Shown here in pieces: positions 10,554 to 43,073 of a DNA stretch of 64,000 bases. This stretch comes from a virus (taxonomy: Duplodnaviria; Caudoviricetes): IMG/VR virus record IMGVR_UViG_3300017776_000008, positions 731 to 64,730 of that record. The stretch is one strand, 5' to 3'. The first letter of the stretch is position 1. Every line of letters begins with the position of its first letter. Under the pieces are notes generated by a model. The model was not told the origin of the DNA, did not search any database, and saw nothing but the letters and a program-made list of their open reading frames with translations. Made by a program: the position numbers and the translations under genes.

Positions 10554-11210
10554 ATGAAACTAATTGCAGAATATATTGATAGCGATTTACAAGTTATCGA
10601 AGAAAAAGTTGGTGGCAAAAAGTCACTAGCTATTGAAGGTGTTTTCATGCAAGCCGATTCTAAAAATAGAAATGGCCGCATATATGATAAGACTATCTTA
10701 GAAAATGCCGTTAACAAATATATTAAAGAACAAGTAAAGACTGGTAGAGCGGTAGGTGAATTGAATCACCCTGATGGACCGACTATCAATCTTGACAAAG
10801 TTTCACATAAGATTACTGAACTCCGTTGGGACGGAAGTAATGTTATAGGAAAAGCATCAATCTTACAAACTCCAATGGGAAAAATTGTAGAAGGTTTACT
10901 AGAAGGGGGTGTTAAGCTTGGTGTATCAAGTCGTGGTATGGGAAGCCTTGTGCAGAAGAATGGAGCTCAACACGTTGGCAAAGATTTTATGCTAGCAACT
11001 GTTGACATTGTTCAAGATCCTTCTGCTCCTGAAGCCTTTGTAAATGGCATCATGGAAGGAGTAGACTGGGTATGGAATAATGGAGTTCTAGTCGCACAAG
11101 ATATTGAATCAATTGAGACTGAAATTAAAGAAGCTAGAAACATGGCAGCCCCTGAGGTTGAAATGCGAGCATTCAAGAATTTCCTCTCTAAATTAAACTC
11201 TAAAATATAG
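10554..11210 (+). CDS. gp21: prohead protease gp21
   Basis: Motifs NRNGRIY, GELNHP, GVSSRGMGS, DIVQDPSAPEAFV. Confidence 0.96.
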   Translation: MKLIAEYIDSDLQVIEEKVGGKKSLAIEGVFMQADSKNRNGRIYDKTILENAVNKYIKEQVKTGRAVGELNHPDGPTINLDKVSHKITELRWDGSNVIGKASILQTPMGKIVEGLLEGGVKLGVSSRGMGSLVQKNGAQHVGKDFMLATVDIVQDPSAPEAFVNGIMEGVDWVWNNGVLVAQDIESIETEIKEARNMAAPEVEMRAFKNFLSKLNSKI

Positions 11211-11219
11211 GAGACTGTT

Positions 11220-12344
11220 ATGTCAATCGACAACGAAAAACTGGAAGAGGCAGTCGAAGATGTAGCTACTGAAGAGCAAATTCAAGAAGAGACTGAAGAG
11301 CTCGTTGAAAATGAGAATTTAGACGAGGCAGAAGTTGAGCTAGAAGAAGCTAAAAAAGTTGAGGAAGAAGACGAAGACGAAGAAGAAGTCGAGGAAGAAG
11401 ACGAAGACGAAGAAGAAACCGTTGAGTCTGTCCAGATTCCAAAAACTAAGGCTGGTGTAATCCAGGCTGCAGTAGAGATGTTGAAGAAAGCCCGTAAAGA
11501 AGATGCACAGAAATTATTTGCTAAAATGACTAAGATTGATGAAACTTCGGAAGAAGATTCTATCAAATCAGTTGATGACGCAATAAAAGGTAAAAAAGCT
11601 AAGAAGGCTAAAGTTGAATCAGTAGATTTTGAAGAAGATCTCGACGCTTTGGTTGCAGAAGAAGCTACTCTTTCTGAAGATTTCCGAGGAAAGGCTGGAG
11701 CTATCTTTGAAGCTGTATTGACTTCTAAGCTTGCTCACGAAGTAGAGCGCCTTGAAGCTGAGTACGTGCAAAATCTGGAAGAAGAAGTTTCAGAAATTCA
11801 AACTTCACTTGTTGATAAAGTAGATTCTTACATGAACTATGTAGTTGAAACTTGGATGCAAGACAATGAAGTTGCAGTTGAAACAGGTCTACGTACCGAA
11901 ATCGCTGAAGAATTTATGACTTCTCTACAAAAAGTATTTGTAGAACACTACATTGATGTTCCTGAAAGTAAAGTAGACTTGGTAGATGAACTATCTGAGC
12001 AAGTTGCTGAACTCGAAGAGAGCCTCAATAAATCAACAGAAGATAATATTCAATTACATGAGTCTGTACAGGATTTCCAACGTGCAGCAATTGTAACTGA
12101 ACACGCTTCTGACTTAGCTACTACTGAAGCTGAAAAGCTTTCTTCTCTAGTCGAAGATATCGATTTTGATGACGCTGAAACTTTCGAAATGAAAGTAAAA
12201 GTTGTTAAAGAATCATACTTTAAAGGTGAAGCTGCTGACTCAGTCGACGAAGCTGATAGCTTACTTGGTGCTGGTACTCAATCCGTTGATGTAACCGACA
12301 CTATGGCTAGATATACTCAAGCAATTAACAAATTAAATAAGTAA
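11220..12344 (+). CDS. gp22: prohead scaffold protein gp22
   Basis: Acidic coiled coil with IFEAVL, VDSYMNYVVETWM, FVEHYIDVP; between gp21 and gp23. Confidence 0.92.
   Translation: MSIDNEKLEEAVEDVATEEQIQEETEELVENENLDEAEVELEEAKKVEEEDEDEEEVEEEDEDEEETVESVQIPKTKAGVIQAAVEMLKKARKEDAQKLFAKMTKIDETSEEDSIKSVDDAIKGKKAKKAKVESVDFEEDLDALVAEEATLSEDFRGKAGAIFEAVLTSKLAHEVERLEAEYVQNLEEEVSEIQTSLVDKVDSYMNYVVETWMQDNEVAVETGLRTEIAEEFMTSLQKVFVEHYIDVPESKVDLVDELSEQVAELEESLNKSTEDNIQLHESVQDFQRAAIVTEHASDLATTEAEKLSSLVEDIDFDDAETFEMKVKVVKESYFKGEAADSVDEADSLLGAGTQSVDVTDTMARYTQAINKLNK
11361..11420 (+). repeat. in-frame 30-bp tandem duplication (EEEDEDEEEV/T x2) in gp22
   Basis: gaggaagaagacgaagacgaagaagaa is repeated at 11361 and 11391. 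Confidence 0.8.
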
Positions 12345-35190: not shown

Positions 35191-35588
35191 GCAAAGACTG
35201 GGTAAAAGATATTAATGAAATGCATTCCAAATATGGAGTGCATGACTGGGTTAGAAACAATCCTGATAAACTCAAAGAGTTTCTTGACTTTCGTCTAAAG
35301 TTTCTCTATGAAGAAGCTAATGAAACATCAATTGCTGTCAATGGCCGTGATGCGGAAGAAATCGTCGATGGCTTAATTGATGTATGTGTTATTGCAATCG
35401 GTACACTCGACTCATTCGGTGTCGATGCATATGAAGCATGGGATGCTGTACATAAAGCTAACATGGCTAAAGTAATCGGTGTAAAAGAAAGCAGGCCCAA
35501 TCCACTTGGTTTGCCAGATCTAGTAAAGCCTGCAGGTTGGGAAAATCCATCGCATAGTGGCAACCATGGTCTCTTTAACGATATTTAA
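35187..35588 (+). CDS. MazG/PRA-PH-like dNTP pyrophosphohydrolase
   Basis: EEANE...EIVDGLID...VHKANMAK...DLVKPAGW. Confidence 0.8.
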   Translation: MSKDWVKDINEMHSKYGVHDWVRNNPDKLKEFLDFRLKFLYEEANETSIAVNGRDAEEIVDGLIDVCVIAIGTLDSFGVDAYEAWDAVHKANMAKVIGVKESRPNPLGLPDLVKPAGWENPSHSGNHGLFNDI

Positions 35589-36483
35589 TAGCATATACGA
35601 TAATAAAACAGTCAAGAGAATGGACTACCAGTCTTTTGACGAGTTTGAAAAAGTATTGTACCGTTTAGCAAGTAGTGAGAAGTATCAAAAGAAAACTGAT
35701 GCACCCCTTATCTCACCCGCTACATATAAGACCGGAACCACCCGAGCAAACGCTAACGTCACTGCTTGGGGTGGCTTCGGCATTGTTGATGTCGATGACT
35801 TCGAAGGTAAGATCGAAGATATTCATGATAAGTATTCTGACTACAAATATGTTTGCTATTCAACAGCAAGCTCTACCAAAGAGCAACCAAAGTTTCGTTT
35901 GGTATTTCCATTAACAGAGAACGTACCTGCGGATAAGATCAAACATTTTTGGCATGCACTCAATAAAGAAATTGGCGATATTGCTGACGCACAAACTAAA
36001 GATCTGAGCCGTATGTACTATGTGCCATCTAAATACAAGGACGCATACAATTTTATTTTTACCCACGATGGTAAGATTATGGATCCAAAAGTATTGATGG
36101 AAAAGCATCGTTATGCAGTTAAGTCAGAATCATTCTTCGACCGACTACCAGAAGCTATTAAGAAAGGATTGCTTGAGCACAAAAAAAACCAGCTCAATAA
36201 CACAAACTACAGTTGGACTGGCTACGATGATTGTCCATTTGTAAACAAGAAGCAAGTTGAAGAATATAAAGCAATTAGTAACTCAGGTTGGTATTTACAG
36301 ATGTATAAGATCATGGTATCAACAGCTGGTAATGCAATGCAACGAGGGTATCCTATTACTGCAAGAGAGATTGCTTGGATATGCCAAGACCTTGATAACC
36401 AAACTGGTAGCTGGTATGGTAAACGCGATATGGTAAAAGAAGCAGAACGTGCTATTGAGTTTTGCTTTAGAAATACTTTATAA
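35566..36483 (+). CDS. archaeo-eukaryotic-primase (PrimPol)-like protein
   Basis: Motifs DVDD, YSTAS...PKFRLVFPL, D..TKDLSRMYYVP; helical C-terminal domain. Confidence 0.7.
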   Translation: MVSLTIFNSIYDNKTVKRMDYQSFDEFEKVLYRLASSEKYQKKTDAPLISPATYKTGTTRANANVTAWGGFGIVDVDDFEGKIEDIHDKYSDYKYVCYSTASSTKEQPKFRLVFPLTENVPADKIKHFWHALNKEIGDIADAQTKDLSRMYYVPSKYKDAYNFIFTHDGKIMDPKVLMEKHRYAVKSESFFDRLPEAIKKGLLEHKKNQLNNTNYSWTGYDDCPFVNKKQVEEYKAISNSGWYLQMYKIMVSTAGNAMQRGYPITAREIAWICQDLDNQTGSWYGKRDMVKEAERAIEFCFRNTL

Positions 36484-36567
36484 ATAAATTTGGGTGGTCC
36501 ACATTAGAGATCCGCATTGGTTCATGCGTTAAAAGAATCGTATAATCCCGTAATGAGAGGACAATAC
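36479..36567 (+). ncRNA. late promoter plus structured cis-regulatory leader (riboswitch-like candidate)
   Basis: TATAAATA at 36479. Nested pairings GTG/TAC, GTCC/GGAC, CATTA/TAATG and GAT/ATC enclose an H-type pseudoknot (CGCAT/ATGCG plus GGTTC/GAATC). Confidence 0.6.
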
Positions 36568-36568
36568 G

Positions 36569-36655
36569 ATGACTGTAGAACTAACTTACAGAGGCGTATC
36601 ATACACTAAGAAAGTTGCTAAAAAAGCAACAGGTGTAGAAAAAGCTTCTAAATAA
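36569..36655 (+). CDS. 28-aa YRG peptide, DUF4278-like (missed by the ORF track)
   Basis: MTVELTYRGVSYTKKVAKKATGVEKASK; LTYRGV.Y signature; GAGAGGA SD. Confidence 0.75.
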   Translation: MTVELTYRGVSYTKKVAKKATGVEKASK

Positions 36656-36714
36656 CTAAAATAGGTGTGGAAAAATTTTAAGGGCCAAGGATGGCTTTCA
36701 ATATGAGGTAAATT

Positions 36715-36969
36715 ATGAAGCATGAATTGAGAAGTTATCAGCAAGTGCTTTGCGTTACAATGGAAGAATGTGGTGAACTTACTCAGGCGTGTAGTAAAGC
36801 GTTAAGGTTCGGCAATAAGGAAGAAATTGCAAAGGAAGCTGGTGATGTATTAGCGATGATCGATTTGCTGGTTAAATATGGATTTACAACCTACGACGAT
36901 TTAGAAAAAAGAAAGCAAGTAAAATTTAATAAACTAAAAAAGTATAGTAATATAATTTGGGAAGAATAA
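36715..36969 (+). CDS. MazG-like nucleotide pyrophosphohydrolase
   Basis: MEECGELTQACSK...EAGDVLAMI. Confidence 0.75.
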   Translation: MKHELRSYQQVLCVTMEECGELTQACSKALRFGNKEEIAKEAGDVLAMIDLLVKYGFTTYDDLEKRKQVKFNKLKKYSNIIWEE

Positions 36970-42830: not shown

Positions 42831-43073
42831 ATGCCAAGCGTAGACTTAAGACCGAAAGGTAAGAAAAAAGCAATGCCATTTGAAGTGGCTATGAGAAAAT
42901 TCAAGAAGTCTGTAGAACGAGCTGGTACTTTGCAAAAAGCAAAAGAAAAAGAGTTCTATGAAAAACCAACTTCTAGGAAGAAAAGAAAGAAAGCAGAATC
43001 CATTATCAGATGGCGTAAGAAAGAAAGACAACTAGCACAAACTGGTTGGGAACAACCAAGGAGTAGATCATAA
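42831..43073 (+). CDS. rpsU: phage-encoded 30S ribosomal protein bS21
   Basis: PFEVAMRKFKKSVERAG.L....KEFYEKPTSRKKRKK matches the bS21 signature. Confidence 0.9.
   Translation: MPSVDLRPKGKKKAMPFEVAMRKFKKSVERAGTLQKAKEKEFYEKPTSRKKRKKAESIIRWRKKERQLAQTGWEQPRSRS

What the first reader, a model, noticed from the sequence alone, without database searches (positions are those of the whole stretch)
36479..36655. Pseudoknotted, RBS-occluding leader RNA upstream of an unannotated YRG (DUF4278-like) peptide
Seen: right after a late promoter, 36494-36567 can fold into a long outer helix: GUG/UAC, GUCC 36497-500 with GGAC 36559-62, CAUUA 36502-06 with UAAUG 36551-55, and GAU/AUC. This helix overlaps the GAGAGGA SD. 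It is capped by a compact H-type pseudoknot: CGCAU 36513-17 with AUGCG 36524-28, loop GGUUC with GAAUC 36535-39, and an A-rich linker. It precedes the 28-aa peptide MTVELTYRGVSY... Known: DUF4278/YRG peptides in marine cyanobacteria and phages lie downstream of glutamine riboswitches (glnA and Downstream-peptide motifs). By eye, this RNA lacks their CGUU...AACG P1 core. Inference: a possibly new riboswitch or cis-regulatory RNA class controlling a phage micropeptide.
Basis: partly seen in the sequence, partly recalled or inferred. Interest (0 to 1): 0.78.

Follow-up and report, generated by a model that had tools for sequence, protein, structure and literature searches.

The report
New pseudoknot leader before phage YRG peptide
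A short, almost invariant RNA leader built from two small pseudoknots precedes a tiny "YRG" peptide gene in many uncultured marine T4-like phages; it matches no catalogued RNA family and looks like a new on-switch for translation, perhaps a new kind of glutamine sensor.

Summary
Its long outer helix is not conserved (53.6% paired, no better than shuffles).

Comparison of 78 distinct leaders gives another anatomy:
- an upstream pseudoknot module whose 4-bp helix covaries at 4 of 4 pairs;
- a near-invariant second pseudoknot;
- a helix (36537-43 with 36564-70) that shares AUC with the pseudoknot and covers the AUG, plus UCC pairing with the SD.

Rfam 15 gives no hit. The same search scores Glutamine-II at 51.5 bits before a homologous peptide in cyanophage 9515-10a.

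The cassette sits in at least 24 genomic contexts. Its one match in 185,579 species' genomes is a phage-like contig.

The phage resembles pelagimyophages: bS21 present, psbA absent in relatives.

Best reading (0.45): a new riboswitch-like translational ON switch, ligand unknown, glutamine the best guess. No ligand, binding or expression control was shown.

This scan noted the same motif earlier on other DNA (e1-5861892, e1-5861890, e1-5711355, e1-5787122).

The parts
36479..36486 (+). T4-type late-promoter motif TATAAATA; predicted transcript start near G36492 by the T4 spacing rule (recalled rule, an inference)
   Evidence: Sequence. The window holds 19 TATAAATA, 18 on the + strand, against 7.85 +/- 2.52 expected; 0 of 100 shuffles reach 19. 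The motif lies 25-31 nt before the core in 26 of 97 distinct cassettes; 70 have none.
36491..36503 (+). Module 1, stem S1a (36491-94 with 36500-03; G.A mismatch at 36493/36501 in this copy), enclosing U36495 and the 5' strand of S2a
Evidence: 78 distinct leaders. Pair 8-21: AU 60, UA 7, other 2, gap 9. Pair 9-20: GC 78. Pair 10-19: UA 31, UG 13, CG 8, GC 1, other 25. Pair 11-18: mostly unpaired. 73.9% of cells paired. Weak helix of 2-4 bp.
36496..36512 (+). Module 1, stem S2a: GGUC 36496-99 with GAUC 36509-12 (pseudoknot stem if S1a forms, otherwise a plain hairpin)
   Evidence: Compensatory changes at 4 of 4 pairs: AU53/GC19/GU3/other3; GC60/AU16/GU1/other1; UA40/CG34/UG4; CG55/UA6/UG1/other16. 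93.6% paired. 16 strand combinations, 13 fully paired, in 60 of 78 rows. Also 3 of 4 pairs on the unfitted MAFFT alignment.
36513..36528 (+). Module 2, stem S1b CGCAU/AUGCG with loop U36518 + GGUUC
   Evidence: Invariant in 78 of 78 distinct leaders. It also never varied in scans that left it free: 118 of 120 pattern matches carry it, and the 2 others lie in coding DNA. The loop's first base is U or A.
36519..36539 (+). Module 2, pseudoknot stem S2b: GGUUC 36519-23 with GAAUC 36535-39; linker UUAAAA 36529-34
   Evidence: Complementary in 78 of 78. The only change is A to G at the position of 36537, which keeps U.G (UA 56, UG 22). A scan with both S2b strands free found only that change. Linker is UUAAAA in 58 and UGAAAA in 5 of 63. 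No compensatory change, so pairing is inferred.
36537..36570 (+). Alternative 'OFF' helix P3: AUCGUAU 36537-43 with AUACGAU 36564-70. It shares AUC 36537-39 with S2b and covers A and U of the start codon. Inner pairing: UCC 36546-48 with GGA 36559-61 of the SD.
   Evidence: Six P3 pairs are 100% paired in 73 distinct leaders, with one-sided changes only (AU51/GU22; UA63/UG10). RNAalifold predicts P3 and UCC/GGA, as does the single-sequence MFE. The 3' strand was in no search pattern. One subgroup carries an extra UUCG- or UACG-capped hairpin inside P3 and keeps P3.
36555..36561 (+). Shine-Dalgarno GAGAGGA
   Evidence: Sequence. GGAG or GAGG is conserved in the alignments.
36569..36655 (+). 28-aa YRG micropeptide gene (DUF4278 N-terminal-like)
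   Evidence: Pfam DUF4278 17.3 bits, E 0.0061, below the 25.3 cut-off; 12 of 14 relatives hit it at E <= 0.1. 12/14 identical to the 18-aa peptide behind Glutamine-II in cyanophage 9515-10a. Variable sites by codon position 16/13/24 of 26 in 51 distinct 27-codon genes.
36683..36699 (+). Small hairpin GGCCA/UGGCU followed by UUUC, between the peptide and the MazG-like gene: a possible weak terminator or the next gene's leader
   Evidence: Sequence. Conserved in L001-L005 and L011. The only Rfam 'hit' here is a chance-level flavivirus cHP match (15.9 bits, E 0.92). Other cassettes end in clearer terminator-like hairpins (27 of 90 by a crude rule).

Best explanation
The roughly 80-nt leader (about 36492-36570) is a cis-acting translational switch for the YRG micropeptide gene.

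It has three parts:
- Module 1 is a small pseudoknot or hairpin that is free to vary in sequence but keeps its pairing.
- Module 2 is a sequence-invariant H-type pseudoknot: stem CGCAU/AUGCG, one-base loop, stem GGUUC/GAAUC, A-rich linker.
- The expression platform is helix P3. Its 5' strand re-uses AUC of the pseudoknot's 3' strand, and its 3' strand contains the first two bases of the AUG. An inner UCC pairs with the SD.

Without a stabilising factor the nested fold wins, and the SD and AUG are hidden (OFF). When pseudoknot stem S2b is stabilised, P3 loses three of its seven pairs and the ribosome site opens (ON).

I take the stabiliser to be a small ligand bound by the invariant module 2. 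Glutamine or a related nitrogen-status metabolite is the best guess, because the same peptide family is under glutamine riboswitches elsewhere.

Shown: conservation, covariation of module 1, the mutually exclusive overlap, and absence from Rfam.
Inferred: pseudoknot formation in module 2, the direction of switching, any ligand and its identity.
For: 1. The core is nearly invariant while its surroundings diverge.
- A peptide-based search that does not use the RNA found the core in 35 of 36 confirmed loci; the 36th had too little upstream DNA.
- Scans leaving S1b, S2b or the linker free found only three tolerated changes, each keeping every proposed pair.
- The peptide genes fall to 52% nucleotide identity.

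2. Module 1 is selected for RNA pairing.
- 4 of 4 S2a pairs show compensatory changes.
- Covariation score is 0.212 against 0.119 +/- 0.006 in shuffles (0 of 500 reach it); slid controls are at most 0.053.
- The unfitted alignment shows it too.

3. Invariant or tolerated G.U pairs in S2b and P3 fit only the + strand RNA.

4. P3 with UCC/SD is the predicted consensus and MFE fold.
- The UACG/UGCG before the AUG is kept in 73 of 73, though no coding, SD or search pattern demands it.
- The A-to-G change at the shared position keeps pairing in both alternative helices.

5. Holding the S2b strands out costs 1.9-5.4 kcal/mol in 7 representative leaders. A ligand could plausibly pay that.

6. The gene association points to glutamine sensing.
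- The peptide is 12/14 identical to one behind a 51.5-bit Glutamine-II riboswitch in cyanophage 9515-10a.
- Related myophages Melnitz and Mosig and contig L222 carry a late promoter, a Glutamine-I riboswitch and a small ORF in the same layout (PMC9004378 passages).

7. The leader does not code: the overlapping ORFs are broken in other copies.
Against: - Neither stem of module 2 shows a compensatory change, so its pseudoknot rests on the complementarity of invariant letters. Five pairs in a short span could arise by chance.
- P3 likewise shows one-sided changes only, and its shuffle control is uninformative (500 of 500).
- Stems that are invariant are unusual for riboswitches. They fit sequence-specific recognition by a protein as well as by a ligand.
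- The single-sequence fold is not unusually stable (z = -0.02).
- Most copies came from patterns that fix parts of the core, so the counts of invariance are partly by construction.
- The whole family is one shallow clade.
- In L222 a genuine Glutamine-I riboswitch cassette lies about 35 nt after the YRG ORF's stop (10771 to 10808). A second glutamine sensor there would be partly redundant.
- The probable hosts are not cyanobacteria. The IF17/GS logic that explains glutamine control in cyanobacteria may not apply.
- No binding, structure-probing or expression data exist. RNA-library contigs cover the region but cannot show a transcript start, and DNA carry-over is possible.
Confidence: 0.45

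Rival explanations
1. Ligand-independent structured leader. The pseudoknot rod at the 5' end protects the late mRNA from 5'-end-dependent decay, or sets a fixed, temperature-dependent or kinetically determined translation rate. P3 merely tunes initiation.
For: The structure starts a few nt after the predicted late-promoter start. No ligand is shown. The fold energies of the two states are close. Stable 5' structures and SD-occluding helices are common without ligands (general knowledge).
Against: A purely structural role predicts covariation everywhere, as in module 1. Yet module 2 is sequence-invariant in 78 of 78 distinct leaders while module 1 beside it varies freely. The conserved three-base overlap between S2b and P3 has no purpose in a static structure.
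Confidence: 0.25
2. Operator for an RNA-binding protein. A phage translational regulator or a host protein recognises the invariant module 2 and sets the S2b/P3 balance, by analogy with the T4 gene 32 leader pseudoknot (recalled).
For: Invariant stems suggest recognition of sequence, not shape alone. T4-like phages use translational operators, and Melnitz-like phages encode a translational regulator (PMC9004378 passages).
Against: The cassette moves among at least 24 upstream and 25 downstream contexts, with no linked candidate protein gene seen. The same peptide family elsewhere uses metabolite-sensing RNAs. No protein was identified here.
Confidence: 0.15
3. A diverged or rearranged true member of the Glutamine-II or Glutamine-I family.
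For: Same downstream peptide family. Both have a xGUUC/GAAyx pseudoknot stem and a CGCAU string after a variable hairpin, seen by eye.
Against: No hit to RF01704 or RF01739 even at E <= 10 on 321 nt, while the same tool scores true members at 50-57 bits. The order of elements differs. In Glutamine-II the 5' pseudoknot strand precedes P1 and the 3' strand lies in the P2 loop (PMC6698751, Results and RNA synthesis sections). Here the 5' strand lies in a hairpin loop and the 3' strand follows it.
Confidence: 0.05
4. DNA-level element: a sigma-70-like promoter (TTGGTT, 18 nt, TATAAT at 36517-22 and 36541-46), or a conserved recombination site that moves the cassette.
For: A perfect TATAAT lies in the window copy. 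The cassette is found in many contexts. Conserved promoter-stem-loop cassettes are said to mediate shuffling in T4-type phages (recalled, not checked).
Against: The '-10' is not kept: TAAAAT, TAAAAG, TAGAGA, TACAAT and TAACGA occur in other copies. The would-be spacer is invariant, which promoters do not require. The covarying helix lies upstream of that putative promoter. G.U pairs make sense only in RNA. The promoter scan did not list it.
Confidence: 0.05
5. One reading: a long outer helix (36494-36567) that occludes the SD and is capped by the pseudoknot.
For: All four segments are complementary in this window.
Against: 53.6% of cells paired against 53.4% in shuffles; 177 of 500 shuffles do as well. 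Its 5' strand is the covarying S2a strand, which pairs locally.
Confidence: 0.03

Closest known systems
Glutamine-II riboswitch (Downstream-peptide motif, type 2; Rfam RF01704)
   Same: - Sits in the 5' leader of the same YRG/DUF4278-like micropeptides; the window's peptide is 12/14 identical to the one behind RF01704 in cyanophage 9515-10a.
- Pseudoknotted, compact, and occurs on phages.
- Type 2 is reported to regulate DUF4278 genes, and the type 1 gifB riboswitch raises translation on glutamine binding by a proposed release of an RBS-pairing strand (PMC6212724 passages).
   Different: - No covariance-model match.
- Different order of helices.
- Two tandem modules instead of P1-PK-P2.
- The conserved pocket nucleotides cannot be mapped.
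- Found in psbA-less, bS21-bearing myophages, not in cyanobacteria or their phages.
- Ligand untested.
Glutamine-I riboswitch (glnA RNA, RF01739) in Melnitz-like phages and pelagimyophages
   Same: - Same phage group and the same cassette layout: late-promoter-like motif, structured leader, small ORF (PMC9004378 passages).
- In L222 the two cassettes are adjacent.
   Different: - Three-stem junction family with a CGUUC...GAACG P1.
- Scores 50-57 bits in those phages but nothing here.
- In Melnitz, Mosig and L222 it precedes non-YRG small ORFs.
Small H-type pseudoknot translational riboswitches (preQ1-I/II, SAM-II/V, guanidine-III class; recalled)
   Same: A hairpin whose loop pairs with a downstream strand after an A-rich linker. 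The pseudoknot's 3' strand is coupled to ribosome-site access.
   Different: No Rfam match to any of them at E <= 10. Here pseudoknot formation should free the SD and AUG instead of hiding them. A second covarying module lies upstream.
T4 gene 32 mRNA leader pseudoknot (recalled)
   Same: An H-type pseudoknot near the 5' end of a T4-type phage mRNA that governs translation of the downstream gene.
   Different: That one nucleates cooperative binding of its own product, gp32. Here the product is an 18-28 aa peptide and no protein partner is known.

Membership tests
Glutamine-II riboswitch (RF01704) | Covariance-model score at or above the gathering score of 33 bits | tested here: not met
   No match even at E <= 10 on 36400-36720, and none at gathering on the whole window. 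Positive control: 51.5 bits in cyanophage 9515-10a.
Glutamine-II riboswitch (RF01704) | Architecture: 5' CGUUC strand, then the P1 hairpin, then a CGC linker, then P2 with GAACG in its loop (PMC6698751) | tested here: not met
   Read by eye. The xGUUC strand lies in a hairpin loop, the GAAUC strand follows the hairpin, and no P2 encloses it.
Glutamine-II riboswitch (RF01704) | Lies upstream of a YRG/DUF4278-like short ORF | tested here: met
Glutamine-II riboswitch (RF01704) | Selective binding of L-glutamine | not testable with these tools
   Needs in-line probing or ITC.
Glutamine-I riboswitch (RF01739) | Covariance-model score at or above 35 bits | tested here: not met
   Also no match in the complete related genome G001. 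Positive controls: Melnitz 52.8, Mosig 50.0, L222 57.2 bits.
DUF4278 (PF14105), for the peptide | Pfam score at or above 25.3 bits | tested here: not met
   17.3 bits, E 0.0061; only profile positions 2-14 of 57 match. 12 of 14 relatives match at E <= 0.1, all below the cut-off. The peptide is N-terminal-motif-like and not a full member.
H-type pseudoknot | Two stems in which the loop of the first pairs with a downstream strand, both supported by covariation | tested here: inconclusive
   Module 1: S2a covaries at 4 of 4 pairs; S1a is weak. Module 2: both stems are complementary in 78 of 78, with no compensatory change.
Riboswitch (any class) | Conserved aptamer plus an expression platform with mutually exclusive pairing | tested here: met
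   Invariant module 2. AUC 36537-39 is shared by S2b and P3. P3 covers the AUG.
Riboswitch (any class) | Direct ligand binding that changes expression | not testable with these tools
T4-type late transcription unit | TATAAATA shortly upstream of the transcript | tested here: met
   36479-36486. The motif is enriched and strand-biased in the window. It is present in only 26 of 97 distinct cassettes, so other copies must use another promoter or read-through.

The most novel reading that the evidence does not exclude
This is a third structural class of glutamine (or nitrogen-status) riboswitch. It is built from tandem H-type pseudoknots. So far it is known only from phages, and those phages probably infect streamlined marine heterotrophs (SAR11- or OM43-like), not cyanobacteria. 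It turns on a YRG micropeptide late in infection. If so, the phages read the host's nitrogen state with an RNA that their hosts do not have.
Probability: 0.25. Interest if true: 0.85.

Novelty: new variant of a known kind. Interest (0 to 1): 0.68.

Why it matters
YRG/DUF4278 micropeptides and the two glutamine riboswitch classes have been treated as cyanobacterial (PMC6212724 passages). Their appearance on myophages of OM43 and SAR11 is unexplained (PMC9004378 passages).

A structurally different, phage-only leader in front of the same peptide gives a compact RNA of about 50 nt with an obvious first ligand to try and a simple reporter design.

- If it binds glutamine, it is a case of convergent aptamer evolution and a new small pseudoknot fold.
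- If it binds something else, or a protein, it shows how late-phase phage micro-genes are gated.

Either way it flags an unannotated, widely distributed micro-gene. At 84-87 nt with its stop codon, the 27-28 aa form is probably below common gene-caller length limits (recalled, not checked). Its function in non-cyanobacterial hosts is open.

Tried and rejected
- **Rfam.** Searched at gathering and at E <= 10; nothing but a chance flavivirus cHP match at 36680-36705.
- **ARAGORN.** No tRNA-like gene in 36300-36800.
- **blastn against cultured phages.** The locus gave no match.
Rejected.
- **Loop of module 1 pairing with UAUAAU 36541-46.** Considered by eye and dropped as inconsistent between copies.
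- **Sigma-70 or MotA-type promoter inside the core.** Rejected because the -10 varies.
- **Overlapping ORFs 36517-36609 (+) and 36522-36602 (-).** Not conserved.
- I miscounted the N run in the pattern; it gave one chance hit in coding DNA (L111) and wasted a scan.
- **Chance pattern matches set aside:**
  - L112 and L113;
  - L120-L124;
  - L126 and L127;
  - L181, L261 and L231.
- **Covariance model R1 against other DNA.** It found no second or diverged copy in 73 sources (594 kb), nor in Melnitz, HTVC008M or C48C1. Mosig gave only E 0.34 and 0.82.
- **RNA libraries.** All are assembled contigs.
  - X18 covers 36513-36671 with 3 differences.
  - X15 covers 36410-36843, but whether that library is RNA is only a guess.
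  - X16 holds a relative's leader and peptide.
  - X16 and X17 contigs begin at 36656 and 36643.
  - Contigs cannot show starts, strand or level, and DNA carry-over is possible. I draw no conclusion from covered or uncovered parts.
- **Host assignment.** It stays an inference. The one 'cellular' hit, L125, lies in a Rhodobacteraceae MAG. Its leader is identical to that of 3 other loci and matches IMG/VR contig L097 by eye, so it is most likely a mis-binned phage contig.
- **Literature.** I found no paper describing this leader. Searches were made, read as listings, plus passages of PMC6212724, PMC9004378, PMC12379486 and PMC7029224, and sections 5 and 10 (part 1) of PMC6698751.
- **Supplements.** They are closed. 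Tables S1 and S2 of PMC6212724 and Table S1 of PMC9004378 may list phage riboswitch loci that I could not see.
- **Not run.** The search for homologous proteins, the representative search, structure prediction and complex prediction; the peptide is under 30 aa or the question did not need them.
Full report
**What is there**

The window is 64 kb of a 64,730-bp IMG/VR record estimated 36% complete. It belongs to a T4-like marine myovirus.
- It encodes terminase, sheath, portal, a gp23-type capsid protein, gp43 polymerase and RNR.
- The capsid protein is closest to Pelagibacter phage HTVC008M (55%), phage C48C1, the Methylophilales phage Melnitz (53%) and cyanomyophages (52-54%).

The finding lies between a primase-like ORF (35557-36483; its best phage hit is annotated DNA primase) and a MazG-like ORF (36715-36969).

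The sequence shows the following:
- TATAAATA at 36479-86;
- the hairpin CGCAU/AUGCG;
- the loop GGUUC complementary to GAAUC;
- the linker UUAAAA;
- the SD GAGAGGA;
- a 28-codon ORF starting MTVELTYRGVSY.

TATAAATA occurs 19 times in the window, 18 on the coding strand, against 7.85 +/- 2.52 expected. This fits T4-type late promoters.

**Is it more than chance?**

On its own the RNA folds no better than shuffles (z = -0.02). The case is therefore comparative.

The primase gene recovered 74 related loci. Only 6 carry the leader and peptide at this place; the rest run straight into Cpn10 or other genes.

A 27-nt core recovered 36 IMG/VR stretches. Several come from contigs that lack the cassette after the primase gene and carry it elsewhere.

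I then searched with one segment left free at a time:
- S1b 3' strand free: 38 viral and 111 metagenome stretches, all true ones unchanged.
- Both S2b strands free: one new true variant with an A-to-G change.
- Linker free: UUAAAA 58, UGAAAA 5.

A search by the peptide alone confirmed 36 loci. Of these, 35 carry the core and one is cut too short upstream.

Only three core positions vary: the one-base loop (U or A), the second linker base (U or G), and the base at 36537 (A or G). None breaks a proposed pair.

The peptide genes fall to 52% nucleotide identity. They vary most at third codon positions: 16, 13 and 24 of 26 sites. The ORF is therefore coding, and the core's constancy does not reflect recent spread.

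Caveat: most copies were found through patterns that fix parts of the core, and the family is a shallow clade.

**Anatomy**

Seventeen distinct leaders aligned by MAFFT (A1) already showed compensatory changes at 3 of 4 pairs of a 4-bp helix just 5' of the core.

A covariance model built from A1 aligned 100 copies, 78 of them distinct.
- In that helix (S2a; GGUC 36496-99 with GAUC 36509-12) all 4 pairs show compensatory changes.
- It has 16 strand combinations; 13 are fully paired, in 60 of 78 rows.
- For the whole structure, the covariation score is 0.212 against 0.119 +/- 0.006 in shuffles. None of 500 shuffles reaches it, and slid controls are at most 0.053.

- The bases before S2a pair with those after its 5' strand (S1a).
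- There is an invariant G-C.
- One flanking pair switches between A-U (60) and U-A (7).
- A third pair is formed in 53 of 78.
- The fourth is mostly unpaired.
- Module 1 is thus a weak H-type pseudoknot at best, or a hairpin.

Module 2 has the same layout but is sequence-invariant: 5-bp stem, one-base loop, 5-bp loop-to-downstream stem, 6-nt A-rich linker.

RNAalifold on the unfitted alignment independently returns four elements:
- S2a;
- S1b;
- a 6-bp helix P3 (7 bp in the window);
- an inner UCC/GGA pairing with the SD.

Single-sequence MFE folds of seven representatives agree.

P3's 5' strand (36537-43) shares AUC with the pseudoknot strand GAAUC. Its 3' strand (36564-70) ends in the A and U of the start codon.

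The UACG or UGCG before the AUG is kept in 73 of 73 distinct leaders, though it stood in no search pattern.

One subgroup has a UUCG- or UACG-capped hairpin inserted inside P3 and keeps P3.

**How it most likely works**

The two conformations exclude each other.
- The nested fold is S1b plus P3 plus UCC/SD.
- It is favoured by 1.9-5.4 kcal/mol over folds in which the S2b strands are held out.
- The default state should therefore hide the SD and AUG.

Anything that stabilises the pseudoknot would open the ribosome site, which makes this an ON switch.

The A-to-G change at 36537 is the one substitution that keeps pairing with U in both alternative helices. It is seen in 22 of 78.

The invariant G.U in S2b and the U.G variants in P3 make sense only for the + strand RNA.

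All of this is inference from sequence. No ligand, protein or expression effect was tested.

**Comparison with what is known**

The peptide matches the N-terminal 13 positions of Pfam DUF4278 below threshold.

It is 12/14 identical to an 18-aa ORF in cyanopodovirus 9515-10a; no annotated feature lies under the match. That ORF lies directly behind a Glutamine-II riboswitch scoring 51.5 bits.

The search method therefore finds glutamine riboswitches where they exist, and it finds none here.

Glutamine-II has a different order of elements (PMC6698751).

Glutamine-I riboswitches occur in the related myophages Melnitz and Mosig (52.8 and 50.0 bits). Buchholz et al. reported this (PMC9004378 passages). 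There they precede other small ORFs.

In metagenome contig L222 this leader and its 20-aa YRG ORF are followed within about 35 nt by a 57.2-bit Glutamine-I riboswitch and a 54-aa ORF.

The 20-nt core occurs in no genome of 185,579 species, except one phage-like contig binned into a MAG.

psbA is absent from 5 related records, including a complete 144-kb genome that carries the motif.

The window encodes bS21 (45.4 bits). Zaragoza-Solas et al. give bS21 as a mark of pelagimyophages against cyanomyophages (PMC7029224 passages).

The host is therefore probably a marine heterotroph and not a cyanobacterium. This is an inference.

**The cassette**

I found 97 distinct cassettes and about 50 distinct peptides. 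My script took the ATG nearest the YRG motif, so the 27-aa forms that start M[N/D]YTM are listed as 23 aa; true lengths are mostly 18-28 aa, with one 42-aa outlier.
- They lie in at least 24 upstream and 25 downstream flank clusters.
- TATAAATA precedes 26 of 97.
- A terminator-like hairpin follows 27 of 90 by a crude rule.

It behaves as a self-contained, shuffled micro-gene unit.

**Verdict**

This is a real, conserved, structured leader that belongs to no catalogued family. It has the design of a translational ON switch in front of a peptide that elsewhere is under glutamine riboswitches.

I put 0.45 on a ligand-sensing switch, with glutamine the best single guess at about 0.25. The rest goes mainly to a ligand-free structured leader or a protein operator.

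The same motif was noted earlier in this scan on other DNA. I found no paper on it.

Noticed in passing
L222:10628-11626: Micro-gene island in a 144-kb metagenome contig. In order: this leader with a 20-aa YRG ORF (10709-10771); a Glutamine-I riboswitch (RF01739, 57.2 bits, 10808-10858) before a 54-aa ORF (10882-11046); a 135-aa ORF; then a freshwater-2 RNA (RF02980, 69.7 bits, 11541-11626) before a 158-aa ORF. L204 also has freshwater-2 downstream of its cassette.
   Followed up: partly
L275:530-657 (Cyanophage 9515-10a, NC_016657.1): Between psbA and gp222 lie a Glutamine-II riboswitch (51.5 bits) and an 18-aa YRG ORF (MTVKLKYRGVSYTKTLNN). No annotated feature lies under the peptide match. 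P-SSP6 has the same peptide match.
   Followed up: partly
L306:1501-1670 (Melnitz) and L307 (Mosig), minus strand about 1380-1550: The Glutamine-I riboswitches of these two cultured myophages are followed by an SD and small basic ORFs: 32-45 aa in Melnitz and about 51 aa in Mosig. The Melnitz paper reads its riboswitch as controlling the tmRNA; a micropeptide target seems at least as likely.
   Followed up: partly
window 36683-36699: A conserved small hairpin (GGCCA/UGGCU, then UUUC) lies between the peptide gene and the MazG-like gene. It is kept in L001-L005 and L011. The Rfam cHP 'hit' there is chance level.
   Followed up: partly
window 42831-43073: Phage-encoded ribosomal protein bS21 (PF01165, 45.4 bits). 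It is reported as typical of pelagimyophages and not cyanomyophages.
   Followed up: partly
L125 (FZLS01000017.1, 44.6-kb contig of a Rhodobacteraceae MAG): It carries the complete cassette. Its leader is identical to that of 3 other loci and matches IMG/VR contig L097 by eye. Most likely it is a phage contig binned with a bacterial genome, and the label should not be read as a host.
   Followed up: partly
window 35557-36483 and loci L001-L074: The gene after the primase-like ORF differs widely among 74 related phages: Cpn10, an SNase-like gene, a secreted protein with a signal-like N-terminus, a cytidylyltransferase-like gene and others. This junction is a hot spot for cassette exchange.
   Followed up: no
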